From the sequence record PP445229.1: a stretch of DNA of 64,000 nucleotides, one strand, 5' to 3'. Both the position numbers and the translations under genes were made by a program. Numbering within the stretch: the stretch's first letter is position 1; every line of letters begins with the position of its first letter. A model generated the notes under the pieces. It worked only from the letters and a program-made list of their open reading frames with translations, searched no databases and had not been told where the DNA came from. This stretch comes from Escherichia phage EC.W2-6. Shown here piece by piece: positions 8,536 to 59,694 of the stretch.

Positions 8536-9269
8536 GTCGTCGTCAATCACGGAAAGAATCACGGAAAGACCTTCGTCGAGAAGCACTTGTTACTCGTAAG
8601 GGTAAGCGAGAGTATGAAGAGGTGGTTTTAGCAAAGCCTGTAGTCCCTCAGAACCAGTTTCAGTCTGAGCTACTCAATGCTATTAAGACTAAACAAGTTG
8701 TGTTCACAGACGCTCCTGCGGGCTGTGGTAAGACCTTTGTAATCACTTCCACGGTTATTGATGCACTGAAGAGTGGTAAGATTCAGAAGATCATCCTGAG
8801 TCGACCTTCAGTTGGCATGGGTAACTCTCTTGGGTTACTTCCGGGAGGAATGCGTGAGAAGTTTGAACCATACCTGATGCCTATCATTGATGTTATTACT
8901 CAGCGATACGGTAAGGGATTCTATGAATGCCAAATCGGAAATGGTAACATTGAATTTGTACCTCTGGAATATCTCCGTGGTCGCTCTTTCAACGATGCCA
9001 TTGTTATCGTAGATGAGTTCCAGAACACAACTAAGGATGAAGCCTTCTCCATCATGACTCGATTGGGAGAAACCTCTCAATTGTTCTGTATGGGTGATAC
9101 AAACCAGCATGATATGCGTGGTCGCGAGAGTGGTCTAACTTGGGCTACTAACTTTATTGATGAACACGATCTGTATGAGTTTGCTGAGATTGTAGATGGT
9201 GAATCAGATGATATTGTTCGTTCTGGTTTCTGTAAGGCGATTGTTAAAGCAATGGAAAAGAAAGCTTAA
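8532..9269 (+). CDS. phoH: PhoH-like ATPase
   Basis: Walker A DAPAGCGKTF and PhoH-like length/layout. Confidence 0.8.
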   Translation: MSRRQSRKESRKDLRREALVTRKGKREYEEVVLAKPVVPQNQFQSELLNAIKTKQVVFTDAPAGCGKTFVITSTVIDALKSGKIQKIILSRPSVGMGNSLGLLPGGMREKFEPYLMPIIDVITQRYGKGFYECQIGNGNIEFVPLEYLRGRSFNDAIVIVDEFQNTTKDEAFSIMTRLGETSQLFCMGDTNQHDMRGRESGLTWATNFIDEHDLYEFAEIVDGESDDIVRSGFCKAIVKAMEKKA

Positions 9270-16155: not shown

Positions 16156-16323
16156 TTATCTCGCAGGTGGCTCCTGCCCTTCGGTACTTGCAAGGGATTC
16201 TGTGAATTGCCCAATATACAAGCCTGCAATAACTTTATCAGCTATACAATATATACATTACTAGTGTGATATATCTACTACCAAAGATACTTATATTATA
16301 TAGTACTCTTATCGGTATAAGCG

Positions 16324-17691: not shown

Positions 17692-19177
<1,486 letters not shown>

Positions 19178-25000: not shown

Positions 25001-26464
25001 AATAGCTTTCTTCATCTCTGGAGAAACATTATCAGCCATCTTCTGTAGTTCAGCAGCTTTCTCTACAAAGTTATTAAAGTCTTCGCCATCACGAGCTTTG
25101 AATCGATTTGCTTCATTGTAGAAAGTCTTGTAAGCATCAATGAAATCACGGTCGGCTTGTGTACGGTTCTTAATATCAATCGGACTACCAGTAAAATCAC
25201 CAGAAGCTCGGAGAGAGGTTAATTCACGATCTAGATTATCTAGAACATCTGTAAGAGCTTTCGTGTTGTCTTTGGTGTAGTCAGCCATTGCATCCTTCAT
25301 AGCAACAGCCTGCTTCTGGTTGTGCTCGTTATCAGCGAATGCTTTACCACGAGTCTTAGCAGGAGAAGCTAAAGGGTTGAGGCCCGGAATGTTGGAATGT
25401 TCTTTCTGAATGGAAGCAGCTTTCTCAGCACGAGCTTGGTCAGTATTAAGAATACGCTGAGCAGCAGGAGAGTCTACAGCAACAGCATCTGTAATACGGA
25501 ATCCATTCTCATCCAGAAGGTTCAGAGCAGAAGCAGCGTTAGCAGTTTCAGCTTTAGAGTAAGCTTCTTTCAGTTCATCAATATTCTTAGCACTACGAAT
25601 TAGTTCATCATCAGCAGCAATATCAGTCTTCGCATACTCTGGAGTGTTCTTGAAGACAGTAGAATCCGGACGGTTAATCAAACCATGAACCCCACCAACT
25701 GCACCACCGAATGCAGCACCCATAGCACCTTCTTCGATAGCACCTTCTAATACATTAGCAAAGGTTGTATCATCTCCATGCTTGTTCTGAGCTTCAGCAG
25801 CACCTACAAGAGCGCCACCTTTAGCACCAGCCACTGCGTTAGTAGCAACGTTCTGACCAATACGTCCAAGTGTGGACTCAGCTGTACCAACAGCGCCCGG
25901 AAGGATTCTCTGAGCCGCATAGTTAGCACCACCAACTAAGGCTGCATCTAGAATAGATTTATCTTCCCCCTCTTCAGGGGTTTGGTCTGCATATGCACGA
26001 CCTGTCTCACGACCTGCGATGATAGCAGCAGCAGCCAATGGGTTAGCAACAGTCATACCAATATCACCAGCAACGCCAGCATACTGACCTACAGTTTTAC
26101 CAATCCCATCCTCAATCTTATCCATACGTTCTTTCAGAAGATTCTGAGAGTTCTCTTGGATACGCTTACCATAACTAGTTTGTGCTCCAGCTAGATTCTC
26201 ACCAATCTCAACTAAACCACCAATACCTTTAGCAGCACTAGCTGCAATATTTGCACCACCAGATTGAAGAGCATTTGACACACCTTGAGCAAACTCACCT
26301 ATAGCACCACGTTCTTCTTGTTGTGGTTGTGCTACTGGCTGTTCCTCAGGAATAGAGCCACCTGCTGCCTTATATTGTTCTCTCATTTGAGCTTGTTGCT
26401 CCGGAGAGGCATTCAGATACGCAGGAGCTTTGGAAGCTTCTTCCCACGGTTTAATGTTAGCCAT
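22043..26464 (-). CDS. large internal virion/ejection protein (1473 aa)
   Basis: Gly/Ala-rich N-terminus, long coiled-coil, AEPLPAR repeats; AAGGAGA RBS before ATG at 26464; last gene of late operon. Confidence 0.6.
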   Translation of the reverse strand: MANIKPWEEASKAPAYLNASPEQQAQMREQYKAAGGSIPEEQPVAQPQQEERGAIGEFAQGVSNALQSGGANIAASAAKGIGGLVEIGENLAGAQTSYGKRIQENSQNLLKERMDKIEDGIGKTVGQYAGVAGDIGMTVANPLAAAAIIAGRETGRAYADQTPEEGEDKSILDAALVGGANYAAQRILPGAVGTAESTLGRIGQNVATNAVAGAKGGALVGAAEAQNKHGDDTTFANVLEGAIEEGAMGAAFGGAVGGVHGLINRPDSTVFKNTPEYAKTDIAADDELIRSAKNIDELKEAYSKAETANAASALNLLDENGFRITDAVAVDSPAAQRILNTDQARAEKAASIQKEHSNIPGLNPLASPAKTRGKAFADNEHNQKQAVAMKDAMADYTKDNTKALTDVLDNLDRELTSLRASGDFTGSPIDIKNRTQADRDFIDAYKTFYNEANRFKARDGEDFNNFVEKAAELQKMADNVSPEMKKAIGGLKKLKGMPEGFNPIQDAYTLNNTAKFMSNQDRGWTSLTDDGFREASSPSLVMNTLGAAKYALNRFSSQRARSQRVKQQESNSEAIRSLARGDLEVARAKSTADEARAKMEEEPVVDDIKFKTQNDVETEPVREPSSSTVTEENLPSSTPQETPLTARDLVAQRRAIRQAEQRRAEEEAAAAQEAPVEQAPQAEPLPARNPLEERRAMEQQRAQEEAAQAPEPTVEEPTVKAEPLPARAPKAPKEAVQDVKPASGVERLAAMSSAARQATKDRAERFARSLYSKAAKAKATAENFLAYKGDPKELMRRIRQEDNAINTERHEEMARNQLASQQGIATAKNNTVRTNFAEWVKERGLPEDIATKALRAEEKGLGGNVTNLDSLKRRAERLYQKQREDEFDRLYQQALEENKAFDKKDAPKLVDQKKELQSEIDALIDSEPLRPAQKDAMRKLMNDFVDGKFKSSEKAGREEALEVGQMKDIWDGFINTYNREVNAFNKANKNSQYEAAAKHLQAREERLATLRKKAQARSDAKAAVENERKTLEAIAAQKSEIEKMMEGLPKPVREAQESRTLKQLAAHHDKNSPVPPEKFRSYIERIHNAESDYLDRQRRLTDAEEDARQAKWNKMYEQAEEMNRKFDVDKRVKRSEELKAAQERENDLMAVQRQRDDIHRRLMRTMEDKGISREDAEAFAGSYMDNRYALLEKPMTPTEHQNARSRIEADVEKFAKKYESMTPIEKEIVKVTGDTEGKLDNLDADTRKAIEEAQKVDSDIKKLQEEELEMEKIRSALPDDEKSQANSDILESIKQQEEVFADKVEKAFLSGKSLDELASVAEVLDRVHGADKAGNNRRFVRALQTAAENKKKYGDNPVAWFSADDYSAIAKLGASSAGGNKSRALEKIFGSTAEQAKSKLLGRDDVAKMRRVIEENPDIKIPSYKTTNRTEYLQFLEKFNDEGKPKIKRGSLSEKLERSKRQSRLRVRVRPKE

Positions 26465-26531
26465 AACGTCTCCTTTTATAAATAAAAATGTCCTACCCCC
26501 TATATACATTATAGAAGGCAGGACTTAGGTC

Positions 26532-28187
26532 TTATTGAGTAAACCAGCTAGTGTCTTCGACAGCTGATAAAGCACCATTGAGCTTAGGATTGGTTGCTGC
26601 ACCACCAACTGCTTCTTCTGCTTGTTCAGAGAAAACACCTAGAGGGTCATAGAAACCACCAGAAGGGATTGCACGGTTAACCAATGCAGTAGCTCTCTTC
26701 TTATCCATACCAGAACCGATGTAAGCTTCAATCGTAGCTCTCTTAGCATCAGCAACACCTTTCATTGCAGAGGTGTGACCAACGTTAGCTTGCTTACGAG
26801 CATAAGCAAGAGCAGAATCAGTAGGACGCCATCCAGATTTCAGTGCAAACTTGTTGCCAACACGAACGAAGATTGATGGGTCTTCTGCAAAGTGCCCCAA
26901 GTCTTCTTCGGTAAGAGAACGAGTAGCACCGATTTCAGCCCTTGCGGAGTTCATGATAGCCTGCATGTAAGCAGAACGAGCTGTCTGATAGTCTTTATCC
27001 TTAACAGCCTTATCAGCCAAATCCAAGTCTTTGTTAGACTGGTTAAACAGGCCACCTTTCTCTGCCCACTGCTTAGCAACCGTACCTTCAGCTGTATTCT
27101 GAGCAAGACGAACTTCTTTCGGGTTAAAGTTAAAACTCTGAGCAGCTTGTTCAGCACGTTCAGCCTTAACCTTATCACGATAACCAATCAACTCTTTCTG
27201 ACGTTCAAAGTTCATGTTAGCTCTTTCTTCAGCGGCACGACGAGTTTCATCAGCACGCTCACGCATAGTTTGCTCTTGAATCTGTTGACGTCTATCCCAT
27301 TCAGCATTTTGTCGTTCTTCACGAGCAGCATACAACGCTTCTTTCTGAGCAGGGTCTACAGCTCTCATCTTCAGTAGAGATGGGTCTCCGTTAGCAATAG
27401 CAGCTGCAATCGAGTCTTGAGAGAAGCCTTGTTCAATCAGAGCATCACGGTTAGCTTCCAGTTGCTTCTTAGTCTCATCTTGATTAGCCATTCCCTGACC
27501 AATCTGGAAAGCTTCAATAGGAGACTTACCTGACATAATGGAAAGACCTACACCCATCAAACCTGTGTAGAAACTAGAGTTCTGATAGAATGGTTCTTTC
27601 TGTAGCTTGTTCCAAGCTTCCGAAGGGTCTTTAGCTTTCGCAACTTGCAAGATATCATTGTTAACACGTTCCTGATCTTTAGCACGAGTAGCAGCAGCCA
27701 TTCCATCACCAGTATCTTGTCCTTGAGCAAGAGTATTAATCACACCTTGTGCCTGTTCCACCTGAGAAGGAGTAAACTCCATAGGACCAGCTTCTAACGG
27801 TTTAGTAGGAGGTGTTACCGGAAGAGGGTCACTAGGCATAAGCCCAGCATCCTGTAAACCTTGATCAGTGGATAGGTTAGGGTTAGACGCTACAGGGGCC
27901 GGTGCTCCAATATCAATACCTTGAAGACTTGTAGGAGTTCCTTGATTCTGCTGTTCCATAAGACGTTGCTGGAATCCCGGATTAACCATAGCAGTCTGAT
28001 CTTCTTCTGCCTGAGAGACAAGACCCGCAAGAGATGAAGGTACAGCAGGACGTTGATACATAGAAATATCTGCTGTCTGAGTTGGTCTAGCCATATAAGG
28101 AGAGGCCGAAGCCGCTCCCGGATTAACACCATAGAAAGTATTTCTCGGGTCACGACTTCTGACCTGAGCGTAAGTTGTCTGTTGCAT
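26532..28187 (-). CDS. virion structural protein (551 aa)
   Basis: Late-operon ORF with AGGAGA RBS; coiled-coil central region. Confidence 0.5.
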   Translation of the reverse strand: MQQTTYAQVRSRDPRNTFYGVNPGAASASPYMARPTQTADISMYQRPAVPSSLAGLVSQAEEDQTAMVNPGFQQRLMEQQNQGTPTSLQGIDIGAPAPVASNPNLSTDQGLQDAGLMPSDPLPVTPPTKPLEAGPMEFTPSQVEQAQGVINTLAQGQDTGDGMAAATRAKDQERVNNDILQVAKAKDPSEAWNKLQKEPFYQNSSFYTGLMGVGLSIMSGKSPIEAFQIGQGMANQDETKKQLEANRDALIEQGFSQDSIAAAIANGDPSLLKMRAVDPAQKEALYAAREERQNAEWDRRQQIQEQTMRERADETRRAAEERANMNFERQKELIGYRDKVKAERAEQAAQSFNFNPKEVRLAQNTAEGTVAKQWAEKGGLFNQSNKDLDLADKAVKDKDYQTARSAYMQAIMNSARAEIGATRSLTEEDLGHFAEDPSIFVRVGNKFALKSGWRPTDSALAYARKQANVGHTSAMKGVADAKRATIEAYIGSGMDKKRATALVNRAIPSGGFYDPLGVFSEQAEEAVGGAATNPKLNGALSAVEDTSWFTQ

Positions 28188-33050: not shown

Positions 33051-33093
33051 AAGTTCCTCCAAAACAATAAAAGGGGCACGAAGCCCCTTGTTG

Positions 33094-37457: not shown

Positions 37458-37676
37458 TTAAGGTAGTATCTTTCTCAGAGCGTTAGATTCAGCATCAGGG
37501 CAAATAACAACTAAGTTATTTTGAATTGTTCTCTGCTTGCATTGAGAGCTAAGCTTCTCTACTGGAGCAGGGACAGTTACTAATGGATGAACTGCGCCTA
37601 CAGGAACTGCGGTGGATACCACAACACCTGCGCCTAAACATATTAAACCATATGCAGCTTGTTTCATCATTTTCAT
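37458..37676 (-). CDS. small membrane/secreted protein (possible holin or lysis accessory)
   Basis: N-terminal hydrophobic segment AAYGLICLGAGVVVSTAV; adjacent to endolysin. Confidence 0.4.
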   Translation of the reverse strand: MKMMKQAAYGLICLGAGVVVSTAVPVGAVHPLVTVPAPVEKLSSQCKQRTIQNNLVVICPDAESNALRKILP

Positions 37677-37688
37677 TTGAGTGTCTCC

Positions 37689-37697
37689 TATATATTA
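37689..37697 (-). promoter_or_regulatory. candidate late promoter element (TAATATATA, minus strand)
   Basis: One mismatch to TAATGTATA; between terminator 37747-37766 and gene start 37676. Confidence 0.25.
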
Positions 37698-37746
37698 ACC
37701 TCTTGGGATATAGTAGTTTCATTACTTATTCACCAGTTTTACTCCT

Positions 37747-37766
37747 AAAAGCCCCCGAAGGGGCTT
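37747..37766 (-). terminator. intrinsic terminator after tail fibre gene
   Basis: GCCCC-CGAA-GGGGC hairpin; T-run on minus strand. Confidence 0.6.
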
Positions 37767-37769
37767 ATC

Positions 37770-42546: not shown

Positions 42547-43299
42547 TTATACACGAGAAGTACGAATACCATAAATATCAGGCAAGCTGCTCTGAAGCCG
42601 AGTCATGTTATTCGGAATTGCGATAGGTGAACCTGAGTACTCTTGTTTCTTATTCTGCTCTACCATTTCATCAAGGATAGCTTTTCCTAATGCTGACCAT
42701 TTCTGAACACCGTTATCATCTTGAACAAAGAGACAAGCATGACGTAGGGTGAAGTACAGAAGAAGTTCTGGTGCGATAGTAAGAATAGCACTGGTATCTG
42801 TATCTTCGTGGAATTCCGGTGGGTCTGCATAATAGCTAAGAATCACTGAGTTTTCTGCTGGAATTAAAGGGCTTCCATCATCAGGATAAACAGGAGTATC
42901 TGCTTCAATACTAGGGTAGAAAATGAAACGACTCCCGAAACGAGCAAAGTTAACAGGTTGGTTATTCCAGTGAGATGGATTAATTGTTCCATGCTGTCTA
43001 CGATAGCTAATCTCCTCAGGAGAGGTTACTTGGAAGATTGTACCATCTTTGGCTCTCATCATCCATTGAGCTTCTAAGTAATCAGGAGGAATATAAGCTA
43101 CTCCATCTTTGATATCTAAATACACTTCTTTTTCCAGAGGAGGAATACGTAAGTTACGATAAATCTCTTTCTCTGCAAAGTTAATAAAGTTTGGAATTTG
43201 ATTAACAAATTCATCGTCGTCCCTATCTGCCCAGAGGGCCACGGCCTTCTTTAGCCACCCATAGGTATTGATGGGGTATTGAACATCTGGCATTGCCAT
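42547..43299 (-). CDS. virion structural protein (possible adaptor/fibre-associated)
   Basis: Position between capsid and fibre genes; no motif. Confidence 0.45.
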   Translation of the reverse strand: MAMPDVQYPINTYGWLKKAVALWADRDDDEFVNQIPNFINFAEKEIYRNLRIPPLEKEVYLDIKDGVAYIPPDYLEAQWMMRAKDGTIFQVTSPEEISYRRQHGTINPSHWNNQPVNFARFGSRFIFYPSIEADTPVYPDDGSPLIPAENSVILSYYADPPEFHEDTDTSAILTIAPELLLYFTLRHACLFVQDDNGVQKWSALGKAILDEMVEQNKKQEYSGSPIAIPNNMTRLQSSLPDIYGIRTSRV

Positions 43300-43332
43300 A
43301 GGTTGTCCTCCTTGTTATATGTAGACAAAGAA

Positions 43333-43341
43333 TATACATTA
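43333..43341 (-). promoter_or_regulatory. candidate phage-specific late promoter element (TAATGTATA, minus strand)
   Basis: Reverse complement reads TAATGTATA, between terminator 43371-43393 and gene start 43299. Confidence 0.35.
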
Positions 43342-43370
43342 CACACTAGCTTGTATAGGTCTTAAAACGA

Positions 43371-43393
43371 AAAAACCCCGCCCGAAGGCAGGG
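43371..43393 (-). terminator. intrinsic terminator after capsid/decoration genes
   Basis: Minus strand CCCTGCC-TTCG-GGCGGGG followed by TTTTTT. Confidence 0.65.
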
Positions 43394-43400
43394 TCTGATT

Positions 43401-48613: not shown

Positions 48614-48644
48614 CTTAAATAAAAGAAGGGAGGACAAACCTCCC
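48614..48644 (-). terminator. possible attenuator hairpin between terL and portal
   Basis: GGGAGG-TTTGT-CCTCCC followed by T-rich run on minus strand. Confidence 0.3.
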
Positions 48645-48651
48645 CCTTACT

Positions 48652-50262: not shown

Positions 50263-50736
50263 TTAACTCTCGTCCGCTTCCTCCCCCTTTTCAGCGTCCT
50301 CAGAGTTGTCTTCTTCTGGAGGCATAACGTCGATACCAAGTGCTCCAGTCAAGAAGTCCTTGATTTGTGCATTCAATGATTCTTCGTTGATTACATTCTC
50401 TTCCTCAATCTTAACTTCAACAGAGGCCGCCTTAGGATATACCAGATCTGCAACTTTTGATGCAGCCTTGAATCTAAGATCAGGTGGAATATTAGGATCT
50501 TCGTAAATTTGAATTAACACTTCATCAGGAGACAAATGACTTGCAGCAACACGGTCCAACATTAATTGTGTCAGTTTACCTCTACTACCTCTGGGTCGTC
50601 CGAATTTATTTCCCTTTTGAAACTTCCCATTGCTTGGGTTCATACCACGGCCTTCAAGTTCTTCCGTTACTCCGGGTAATCTTCCTGTAATCTCAGCTAC
50701 CTGTGCAGGCGTGAGTTCTCCGTTTTCTCCAAACAT
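50263..50736 (-). CDS. terminase small subunit (putative)
   Basis: 157 aa immediately upstream of large terminase; acidic C-terminus. Confidence 0.45.
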   Translation of the reverse strand: MFGENGELTPAQVAEITGRLPGVTEELEGRGMNPSNGKFQKGNKFGRPRGSRGKLTQLMLDRVAASHLSPDEVLIQIYEDPNIPPDLRFKAASKVADLVYPKAASVEVKIEEENVINEESLNAQIKDFLTGALGIDVMPPEEDNSEDAEKGEEADES

Positions 50737-50792
50737 TTTATACTCCTTCTACATTATCAACAACACAAAAAGCCTCCCAACGGAGGCAAATA

Positions 50793-59495: not shown

Positions 59496-59694
59496 TCACT
59501 AGTGCCAGATTTGACAAACTAAATTCCTTTATAAACCAACCACTTAGTAAATTTATTGAAAAAGATGGTAGTATTCTGGGACTATGGGTAATGCTCTGTA
59601 TATAGACCCTTTGAAAATTTCTTAGAAAATAAGTTTACTAAATATAACTTACTTAAATAATATTACTTTTAATCTCTGATAAAGGGTAAATAAT

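What the first reader, a model, noticed from the sequence alone, without database searches (positions are those of the whole stretch)
37689..37766. Terminator-then-promoter modules inside the late operon (also at 43333-43393)
Strong intrinsic terminators on the minus strand sit directly after the fibre gene (37747-37766) and after the capsid/decoration genes (43371-43393). Each is followed within 30-50 nt by a TAAT(G/A)TATA element and the next gene's RBS. This suggests transcript dosage control, with capsid mRNA terminated and re-initiated for downstream genes.
Basis: seen in the sequence. Interest (0 to 1): 0.35.

Follow-up and report, generated by a model that had tools for sequence, protein, structure and literature searches.

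The report
Known phage terminator–promoter junctions, one misread
These are two of the hairpin terminators in the late operon of a phiEco32-like coliphage: one is followed by the already published promoter for the phage's own sigma factor, while the "promoter" flagged at the other is a chance AT-rich match, with a better-conserved candidate 27 bases upstream.

Summary
The window is a Kuravirus (phiEco32-like) coliphage, 100% identical over the tested stretch to EC.W8-1 and EC.W14-3. Its late genes lie on the minus strand. Site 2 (43333-43396) is real and already published: it is the SU10 "terminator 8934 + late promoter 8988" and the homologue of phiEco32 P13. P13 is read by the phage sigma factor gp36 (consensus tAATGTAtA), and gp36 is encoded in the window. 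The hairpin covaries across relatives, and TAATGTATA occurs 5 times against 0.6 expected. Site 1 (37689-37766) is only half right. The hairpin after the fibre gene is conserved, but its U-tract is weak (4 U here, 3 in most relatives). The flagged TAATATATA is at chance level and not conserved. It lacks the -11G and -34A that gp36 reads, and its start site would fall after the holin ribosome-binding site. Upstream, a block TTTAGnAGT-N16-TAATGAA is invariant in 15 distinct relatives and carries every published gp36 contact base. It is a candidate non-canonical promoter for the lysis cassette, still untested. All three canonical late promoters (P6, P13, P26) sit next to or inside terminator-like hairpins. 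Dosage control is plausible but not shown. Verdict: ordinary and largely known.

The parts
43364..43396 (-). Intrinsic terminator after the Ig-like decoration gene (phi32_12 homologue). Stem 43396-43387 / 43382-43373, loop UUCG, U-tract UUUUUUCGUUUU down to 43364.
   Evidence: Covariation: pair types CG/GC/AU and GC/CG. Published as SU10 terminator 8934 and annotated as 'terminator' in NC_070991.
43356..43364 (-). TAAGACCTA, the upstream (-38..-30) element of P13. It supplies the -34A and the -37 purine, and is shared with P26.
   Evidence: Invariant in relatives. The -35-region contacts of gp36 are described in PMC12276001.
43333..43341 (-). TAATGTATA, the -15..-7 element of late promoter P13 (gp36-dependent). 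Predicted +1 is G43326, giving a 27-nt leader. SD AAGGAGG is at 43307-43313 and the ATG at 43297-43299.
   Evidence: Identical to the SU10 late promoter 8988 and to phiEco32 P13. Experimentally defined in phiEco32.
37747..37766 (-). Weak terminator-like hairpin after the tail-fibre gene (phi32_15 homologue): AAGCCCC-UUCG-GGGGCUU, then UUAGGAG.
   Evidence: Three stem variants keep pairing in relatives. Annotated as 'terminator' in NC_070991. Replaced by a different hairpin without a U-tract in XT32.
37740..37750 (-). Conserved TTTTAGGAGTA (family pattern TTTAGnAGT). A candidate -35-region element: -37A, -36G, -34A relative to TAATGAAAC.
   Evidence: Invariant columns T33-T41. Positions. GTAGTA sits at the same offset in P68 and P40as.
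37716..37724 (-). Conserved TAATGAAAC, a candidate non-canonical gp36 -10 element (AATG kept; -10 T>A). Predicted +1 is A37709, giving a 33-nt leader to the holin ATG. This is inferred, not demonstrated.
   Evidence: TAATGAA is invariant in 15 distinct relatives at constant spacing to the upstream block. It carries all contact bases listed. There is a syntenic validated promoter, P16, in phage 7-11.
37689..37697 (-). An AT-rich spacer directly abutting the holin SD (GGAG 37685-37688; ATG 37674-37676). Not supported as a promoter.
   Evidence: chance level; not conserved; -11A, -34C; G-specific contacts at -11.
50748..50787 (-). Third module of the same kind: hairpin GCCTCC-GTTG-GGAGGC (50787-50772) plus UUUUUGUGUUGUU, then P6 TAATGTAGA (50756-50748).
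   Evidence: Identical in phiEco32. P6 is in the published list.
26478..26524 (-). Fourth module: a 15-bp hairpin (26524-26510 / 26504-26490) whose loop and stem contain P26 TAATGTATA (26511-26503), followed by AUUUUUAUUUAU. Predicted +1 G26496 lies inside the 3' arm.
   Evidence: Conserved, with five one-sided pair-preserving changes, in six phages. P26 activity in vitro is reported.
48626..48646 (-). Terminator-like hairpin after the large terminase gene. No gp36 motif follows it.
   Evidence: SU10 terminator 3682.
33071..33089 (-). Terminator-like hairpin after the phi32_19 homologue. No promoter motif follows; the next ATG is about 22 nt downstream.
   Evidence: Annotated as 'terminator' in NC_070991 and in phage Paul.
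18151..18798 (+). Gene for the phage sigma factor gp36, which reads the TAATGTATA promoters.
   Evidence: Full-length match to PDB 9M7Y chain F, E = 1e-145. Contact residues E79, H80, Y83, R84, W90, S91, S94, N95, Y186 and R187 are present (compared).

Best explanation
The window is a phiEco32-like (Kuravirus) coliphage. [quoted passage not shown] This enzyme starts at tAATGTAtA promoters and, being the host core, should respond to intrinsic terminators.

Site 2 is the known junction between the head genes and the tail genes. A strong terminator ends part of the P6-derived head-gene transcripts just after the capsid and decoration genes. About 32 nt further on, promoter P13 restarts transcription (predicted +1 G43326) for gp13 and the tail genes.

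Site 1 is the junction between tail-fibre gene 15 and the holin-endolysin cassette. It holds a conserved hairpin with a poor U-tract, so at best a leaky terminator or a 3'-end-stabilising structure. The TAATATATA next to the holin RBS is not a promoter. If transcription restarts at this junction, it most likely does so from the conserved bipartite block TTTAGnAGT-N16-TAATGAA (37750-37716, predicted +1 A37709). That block retains every base that gp36 is known to contact.

What is shown: identity with the published elements, conservation, covariation, and presence of gp36. What is inferred: termination efficiency, dosage control, and the candidate 'P16' promoter (my estimate about 0.4).
For: Identity of the phage:
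- 100% match to EC.W8-1 and EC.W14-3, and 83-96% to MN03, SU10 and others.
- Gene order equals that of phiEco32.

The sigma factor and its promoters:
- gp36 is present with intact contact residues.
- All six published gp36 promoters are found at the expected places: 5112+, 9281+, 16324+, 26503-, 43333-, 50748-.

Site 2:
- The sequence equals the SU10 published terminator and late promoter.
- The module is conserved in about 20 relatives, with compensatory stem changes.

Site 1:
- The hairpin is conserved in three stem variants and is annotated as a terminator in NC_070991.
- Its U-tract is weak.
- TAATATATA is at chance level, variable, and has the wrong bases at -11 and -34.
- In the alignment of the hairpin-to-holin stretch, the largest invariant runs downstream of the hairpin stem are TTTAGnAGT and TAATGAA, with no gaps between them.
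- These blocks give -37R, -36G, -34A, -14A, -13A, -12T, -11G and a purine at +1, like all seven consensus promoters.
- The blocks persist in XT32, where the terminator hairpin is replaced.
- Phage 7-11 has an experimentally validated late promoter at the syntenic junction, before the phi32_18 homologue.

General pattern: P6 and P26 are also coupled to terminator-like hairpins.
Against: - No transcript 5' or 3' ends are available for this phage or any Kuravirus in the searchable literature.
- The primary phiEco32 papers (Pavlova 2012, Savalia 2008) could not be read.
- Published searches in six phiEco32-type genomes list only six gp36 promoters and none before the holin.
- TAATGAAAC differs from the consensus at 3 of 9 positions, including the otherwise invariant -10T. 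TAATGAA alone is not over-represented (13 observed against 15 expected).
- The bipartite pattern was defined after seeing the site, so its enrichment (4 against 0.33) is partly circular.
- Two other late-operon hairpins (after genes 7 and 19) have no promoter after them, so a terminator does not imply a restart.
- A terminator after gene 7, upstream of the head genes, sits oddly with a simple 'more capsid mRNA' dosage model.
Confidence: 0.75

Rival explanations
1. Site 1 has no promoter at all. The hairpin only attenuates or stabilises transcripts coming from P13. The holin, the endolysin and the downstream tail genes are expressed by read-through. The conserved TTTAGnAGT and TAATGAA blocks reflect some other constraint, such as the terminator tail, control of holin translation, RNA processing, or homology arms for fibre-module exchange.
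For: - Only six gp36 promoters are reported, none before gene 16.
- The -10 region deviates from the invariant AATGTA core.
- TAATGAA is not enriched genome-wide.
- The fibre genes upstream are mosaic, and homology resumes around the hairpin.
- The hairpins after genes 7 and 19 also lack promoters.
Against: - The two blocks stay invariant, at fixed spacing, in lineages where the sequence between them, the hairpin and the RBS region have all diverged (WFI101126, Ptacy1532, XT32).
- The invariant bases coincide with the gp36 contact positions.
- In XT32 the TTTAGCAGT block lies in a hairpin loop with no U-tract role.
- There is a syntenic promoter in phage 7-11.
Confidence: 0.5
2. One reading: TAATATATA (37689-37697) is a variant late promoter that re-initiates transcription for the holin gene after a strong terminator.
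For: - It matches the consensus at 8 of 9 positions, is on the right strand and is intergenic.
- Its layout (element directly abutting the SD) resembles that of the validated P6.
- The predicted +1 is a purine.
Against: - The mismatch is the -11 guanine, whose N2 and O6 atoms are read by gp36 E79 and H80. Mutating contact nucleotides compromises activity.
- -34 is C where all seven consensus promoters have A.
- The motif is at chance frequency.
- It is not conserved: TAATACATA, GAATACACATA, AAAATGAAAGG in relatives.
- Its start would remove the SD from the holin mRNA.
- The terminator is not strong.
Confidence: 0.05
3. The hairpins are not terminators in vivo. Instead they act mainly as 3'-end protective or processing structures that set differential mRNA stability, with transcription running through them.
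For: - Several have short or interrupted U-tracts: site 1, the hairpins after genes 7 and 19, and the large-loop P26 hairpin.
- A terminator upstream of the capsid genes would be counter-productive.
- In XT32 the site 1 hairpin has no U-tract.
Against: - Site 2 and the P6 hairpin have canonical GC stems followed by 6 T in 8 nt, and high rough scores.
- The enzyme is the host core polymerase.
- Terminator-like sites are enriched in the region: 26 against 13.5 +/- 3.3.
- The two roles are not mutually exclusive.
Confidence: 0.15

Closest known systems
phiEco32 late promoter P13 and its SU10 equivalent (terminator at 8934 plus late promoter at 8988 between CDS10 and CDS11)
   Same: The sequence at site 2 is identical to the SU10 late promoter as published (gtgtgTAATGTATAttctttgtctacatataacaaggag), and the terminator differs from the SU10 listing only in the bases just upstream of the stem. 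It occupies the same position after the Ig-like gene and before the gp13 homologue, and the same sigma factor is present.
   Different: Nothing material. This is the same element in a closely related phage.
gp36-dependent promoters of phiEco32 (tAATGTAtA; AATGTA centred at -11.5; -35-region contact at -37G and -34A; cryo-EM structure 9M7Y)
   Same: The site 1 candidate TAATGAAAC keeps -14A, -13A, -12T, -11G, -34A and a purine at -37, with a purine at +1.
   Different: It has A instead of T at -10, and AC instead of TA at -8/-7. It is not in any published promoter list and there is no transcript evidence.
Late promoter P16 of Salmonella phage 7-11 (GTAATT-N16-ACTA, read by sigma factor gp47)
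   Same: A validated internal late promoter in the intergenic gap after the fibre/tail genes and before the block containing the phi32_18 homologue. This is the syntenic junction to site 1.
   Different: A different sigma factor (15% identity) and a different bipartite consensus. The gene downstream is a small virion protein, not a holin.
T7-type layout: terminator T-phi after major capsid gene 10, with further late promoters downstream (from my own knowledge)
   Same: A partial terminator directly after the capsid gene is thought to raise head-protein mRNA relative to tail-gene mRNA. Downstream genes get their own promoter.
   Different: T7 uses a phage single-subunit RNA polymerase with its own terminator signals. 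Here the host core enzyme carries a phage sigma factor and meets ordinary intrinsic terminators. The promoter also follows the terminator within about 30 nt, or lies inside the hairpin (P26).

Membership tests
gp36 (phiEco32 sigma) promoter: site 2, 43333-43341 | Consensus tAATGTAtA, with the AATGTA core at -14..-9 | tested here: met
   Exact TAATGTATA. Conserved in relatives; two have TAATGTAT/CT with the core intact.
gp36 (phiEco32 sigma) promoter: site 2, 43333-43341 | -35-region contact bases (-34A, purine or G at -37) | tested here: met
   -37A, -35G, -34A within TAAGACCTA, which is shared with P26. Contacts are described.
gp36 (phiEco32 sigma) promoter: site 2, 43333-43341 | The cognate sigma factor is encoded by the same genome | tested here: met
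   Window 18151-18798 matches PDB 9M7Y_F at E = 1e-145, and the contact residues are intact.
gp36 (phiEco32 sigma) promoter: site 2, 43333-43341 | A primary transcript 5' end 6-8 nt downstream that depends on gp36 | not testable with these tools
   [quoted passage not shown] Not measured for this phage.
   -11 is A. The contact is described.
   -34 is C, whereas all seven consensus promoters have A.
   Replaced by TAATACATA, GAATACACATA or AAAATGAAAGG. Frequency is at chance.
gp36 promoter: candidate TAATGAAAC, 37716-37724 | AATG contact bases at -14..-11, plus -34A and a purine at -37 | tested here: met
   These columns are invariant in 15 distinct relatives.
gp36 promoter: candidate TAATGAAAC, 37716-37724 | Full AATGTA core and tAATGTAtA consensus | tested here: not met
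   AATGAA: -10 is A, not T, and there are 3 of 9 mismatches to the consensus. It cannot be filed as a canonical member.
gp36 promoter: candidate TAATGAAAC, 37716-37724 | A gp36-dependent 5' end | not testable with these tools
   No data. It is absent from the published lists.
Intrinsic (Rho-independent) terminator: site 2 | A GC-rich stem with a short loop, followed by a U-tract, just downstream of a stop codon on the coding strand | tested here: met
   A 10-pair stem, UUCG loop and 6 T in the next 8 nt, starting 5 nt after the stop codon.
Intrinsic (Rho-independent) terminator: site 2 | The structure is maintained in evolution | tested here: met
   Two pairs show compensatory double changes and one shows GC/GU.
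Intrinsic (Rho-independent) terminator: site 1 | A GC-rich stem with a short loop | tested here: met
   Five GC pairs plus two AU pairs, UUCG loop. Three stem variants keep pairing.
Intrinsic (Rho-independent) terminator: site 1 | A U-tract of about 5 or more U immediately after the stem | tested here: not met
   UUUUAGGAG here and UUUAGUAG in most relatives. Not reported by the scan. T-weight is 3.1 or lower, against 4.3-4.5 for the strong sites.
Intrinsic (Rho-independent) terminator: both sites | RNA 3' ends, or release, at the U-tract | not testable with these tools
   No Term-seq or in vitro termination data were found.

The most novel reading that the evidence does not exclude
The fibre/holin junction carries an unrecognised seventh or eighth gp36 promoter of a relaxed type. 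It would have a -35-like TTTAGnAGT, a -10 TAATGAA (only the AATG contact bases kept) and +1 at A37709. It would give the lysis cassette its own, probably weak, late transcription unit behind a leaky terminator. More generally, every late gp36 promoter in these phages would be deliberately paired with a terminator. In the extreme case of P26, the promoter lies inside the terminator hairpin, so read-through RNA is terminated while RNA started at the promoter is not.
Probability: 0.4. Interest if true: 0.35.

Novelty: already known. Interest (0 to 1): 0.2.

Why it matters
As flagged, it matters little. The motif is the published gp36 promoter consensus, and the site 2 terminator-promoter pair is already in the SU10 paper and in GenBank annotations.

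The value of the check lies in four points:
- It prevents TAATATATA from being annotated as a promoter.
- It identifies a conserved bipartite block before the holin gene as a testable candidate for how lysis-gene transcription is set in Kuraviruses. These phages are used in phage therapy and engineering, where payloads are often placed behind late genes.
- It suggests that gp36 may need only AATG plus the -34A region. This can be tested directly with the existing in vitro system.
- It shows that all three late promoters are insulated by hairpins.

Tried and rejected
- The primary phiEco32 papers (PMC3275717, PMC2587145) are not held. Promoter data were therefore taken from secondary sources.
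- No Kuravirus transcript maps were found. One RNA-seq study sampled 10 min after infection and mapped reads only to the host genome.
- IMG/VR gave only 5 related loci, so relatives were fetched from GenBank phage records instead.
- A coding role for the ATG inside TAATGAA was rejected. The 57-aa ORF 37549-37722 is not conserved in length or frame: 8-9 codons in WFI101126 and SU7, in frame with the holin in KBNP1711, out of frame in ECBP2 (read from the sequences).
- An SD-sequestering hairpin (CUACUAUAU pairing with AUAUAGGAG) was rejected. It is not in the minimum-energy fold and is not maintained in the relatives' sequences.
- A sigma-70 promoter at site 1 was rejected. There is no acceptable -35/-10 pair on the minus strand in the 37677-37769 gap. 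The conserved TAnTAT has no -35 partner at 16-18 nt.
- A wider class of 'AATG-only' promoters was looked for. The pattern GNAGTA-N15-WAATG gives 4 hits against 0.33 expected, all intergenic. However, the pattern was defined after seeing the site, and the fourth hit (59568) is ambiguous.
- The terminator d-score was re-implemented from memory and is used only for ranking.

Full report
**What the window is.** The 7.1-kb stretch around the finding is 100% identical to Escherichia phages EC.W8-1 and EC.W14-3. It is 83-96% identical to MN03, SU10 and other Kuravirus (phiEco32-like) podophages. The gene order on the minus strand matches phiEco32 genes 5 to 26:
- large terminase, portal, scaffold, major head protein and Ig-like protein;
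- then gp13 and two tail-fibre genes;
- then holin (72 aa, 37458-37676), endolysin and tail genes.

So "after the fibre gene" is the gene 15 / holin junction. "After the capsid/decoration genes" is the gene 12 / gene 13 junction.

[quoted passage not shown] Six promoters (before genes 6, 13, 26, 40, 58 and 68) were identified experimentally. They share the single element tAATGTAtA, with starts 6-8 nt downstream (PMC8948821; PMC4331800; supplement).

A 2025 cryo-EM study describes the contacts (PMC12276001):
- AATGTA is centred at -11.5.
- There are base-specific contacts to -14A, -13A, -12T and the guanine at -11 (its N2 and O6 atoms, read by E79 and H80).
- There is an essential -35-region contact at -37G and -34A.

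The window encodes gp36 at 18151-18798, a full-length match to PDB 9M7Y chain F (E = 1e-145). All the contact residues are present. All six published promoters are found at the expected places: 5112+ (AAATGTATA), 9281+, 16324+, 26503-, 43333- and 50748- (TAATGTAGA).

**Site 2.** The minus-strand sequence from 43396 to 43297 holds five features in order:
- a 10-pair hairpin with a UUCG loop;
- UUUUUUCGUUUU;
- TAAGACCTA at -38..-30;
- TAATGTATA at -15..-7;
- a 27-nt leader with AAGGAGG and the ATG of the gp13 homologue.

The promoter is identical to the "late promoter 8988" listed for phage SU10, and the hairpin matches "terminator 8934" apart from the bases just upstream of the stem (PMC4281155, Table S2). 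It is also the homologue of phiEco32 P13.

The hairpin is the best terminator-like site between 30 and 50 kb. It folds far better than shuffles (z = -4.8). Across relatives it shows two pairs with compensatory double changes. TAATGTATA occurs 5 times against 0.61 expected. This part of the finding is real and already described.

**Site 1, the hairpin.** AAGCCCC-UUCG-GGGGCUU (37766-37748) begins 4 nt after the fibre-gene stop codon. It is conserved. Relatives carry three different stems that all pair: GCCCC/GGGGC, CCCCGC/GCGGGG and ACCCUC/GAGGGU. The GenBank record of phage WFI101126 annotates it as a terminator.

It is not a strong terminator:
- Energy is -12.6 kcal/mol and z = -1.55.
- Only four U follow the GC stem here, and three in most relatives.
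- It fails the scan's U-tract criterion.
- It ranks well below site 2 and the P6 hairpin in a rough score.
- In the XT32 lineage it is replaced by an unrelated 10-11-pair hairpin with no U-tract.

**Site 1, the flagged TAATATATA.**
- It occurs once against 0.56 expected; 42 of 100 shuffles have at least one copy.
- Its single mismatch to the consensus is the -11 guanine that gp36 reads specifically.
- Its -34 position is C, whereas all seven consensus promoters in the window have A.
- In relatives the same place reads TAATACATA, GAATACACATA or AAAATGAAAGG.
- Its predicted start (A37682) lies downstream of the holin Shine-Dalgarno GGAG (37685-37688).

I note that the validated P6 has a similar tight layout. 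The geometry alone is therefore not disqualifying, but the other four points are. I reject this element as a promoter.

**Site 1, what is conserved instead.** An alignment of 15 distinct relatives has no gaps between two blocks. The largest invariant runs between the hairpin stem and the RBS are TTTAGnAGT (window 37749-37741) and TAATGAA (37724-37718), followed by nnnAnTAT. These blocks persist in WFI101126 and Ptacy1532, where the sequence between them is largely different. They also persist in XT32, where the terminator is gone.

With TAATGAAAC placed at -15..-7, the site has -37A, -36G, -34A, -14A, -13A, -12T, -11G and +1 = A37709. That is every published gp36 contact base and a purine start, as in all seven consensus promoters. 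In phiEco32 itself the upstream block reads GTAGTA at -36..-31, identical to P68 and to the extra copy at 16252. The leader would be 33 nt, similar to that of P13.

Salmonella phage 7-11 is a distant relative with a different sigma specificity. It has an experimentally validated late promoter (P16) at the syntenic junction, before the phi32_18 homologue.

Against the idea:
- The -10 region is AATGAA, not the otherwise invariant AATGTA.
- Published searches list only six promoters.
- TAATGAA is not over-represented.
- The bipartite pattern was defined after seeing the site.

I rate this candidate "P16" at about 0.4.

**The wider pattern.** The late operon has six internal hairpins, and all three canonical late promoters are coupled to one.
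- P6 follows GCCTCC-GTTG-GGAGGC plus UUUUUGUG by 12 nt (50787-50748).
- P13 is site 2.
- P26 lies inside a 15-pair hairpin (26524-26490) followed by AUUUUUAUUUAU. Its predicted start, G26496, is in the 3' arm. RNA started at P26 therefore cannot form the hairpin, while read-through RNA can. This hairpin is conserved in six phages, with five pair-preserving changes.
- The hairpins after genes 7 and 19 have no promoter behind them.

It applies to P6, P13 and P26 rather than to TAATATATA.

**Mechanism and its status.** The following is inference from established properties of intrinsic terminators and of the gp36 holoenzyme. Head-gene transcripts from P6 end partly at the site 2 terminator, whose stable 3' hairpin should also protect them. 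P13 gives the tail genes an independent input that is stimulated by gp79 (one search shows stimulation for P26 and P68). The weak hairpin after the fibre gene trims or stabilises fibre mRNA, and the lysis cassette is fed by read-through and possibly by the TAATGAA block. No transcript data exist to confirm efficiencies. The terminator upstream of the head genes (after gene 7) does not fit a simple capsid-dosage story.

**Verdict.** Site 2 and the motif are already known. The site 1 promoter call is wrong, but a nearby conserved candidate deserves a simple in vitro test. Interest is low (0.2).

Noticed in passing
window 16245-16281 (minus strand), with the transcript region down to about 16085: A seventh consensus gp36 promoter that is not in the published list of six. 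It is an exact TAATGTATA (16260-16252) with GGTAGTAGATAT at -37..-26, the same as P68, and it fires away from P40 into a 546-nt gap with no minus-strand ORF longer than 35 aa. The promoter blocks and a downstream stretch of about 160 nt, ending in a 16-pair hairpin plus UUUAAAA, are conserved in ECBP2, SU7 and TH42. There is no Rfam match. It may be a phage small RNA under gp36 control.
   Followed up: partly
window 26478-26534 (minus strand): Promoter P26 is embedded in a conserved 15-pair terminator-like hairpin followed by AUUUUUAUUUAU. The predicted start, G26496, lies in the 3' arm, so only read-through RNA can form the hairpin.
   Followed up: partly
window 50734-50756 (minus strand): The predicted P6 start (A50741) is 5 nt before the ATG of the gene 6 homologue and downstream of its SD, AGGAG. 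P6 transcripts would therefore be nearly leaderless for that gene.
   Followed up: no
L014 392-904 (IME267) and L017 1958-2470 (XT32): In IME267 an annotated HNH endonuclease gene sits between P13 and the gp13 homologue; XT32 has a hypothetical gene of the same length at the same position. Both begin with the same leader and first codons (ATGGCAATGCCAGAT) as gp13, which suggests a homing-endonuclease insertion exactly at the P13-driven start.
   Followed up: no
window 59568-59610 (+ strand): GGTAGTA-N15-TAATGCTCTGTATATAG lies in an intergenic region just downstream of a conserved TTGACA-N17-TATAAA promoter. The TAATG(A)CTGTATATAGACC part is conserved in KBNP1711, EK010 and SU7. It looks like a split or degenerate gp36 element. 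Its meaning is unclear.
   Followed up: partly
window 26462-26511 (minus strand): The mechanical ORF start of the 1488-aa gene (ATG at 26509) lies inside the P26 element. The phiEco32 annotation implies that the real start is the ATG at 26464-26462, after AAGGAG.
   Followed up: yes
window 37662-37676 (minus strand): The holin gene opens with ATGAAAATGATGAAA (M-K-M-M-K). This is a multiple-start arrangement of the kind seen in holin/antiholin pairs (the comparison is from my own knowledge).
   Followed up: no
window 43356-43364 and 26526-26534 (minus strand): The late promoters P13 and P26 share an upstream element, TAAGACCTA, at -38..-30. It differs from the GGTAGTAG element of P68 and P40as, which suggests distinct -35-region subclasses for late and middle gp36 promoters.
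   Followed up: partly
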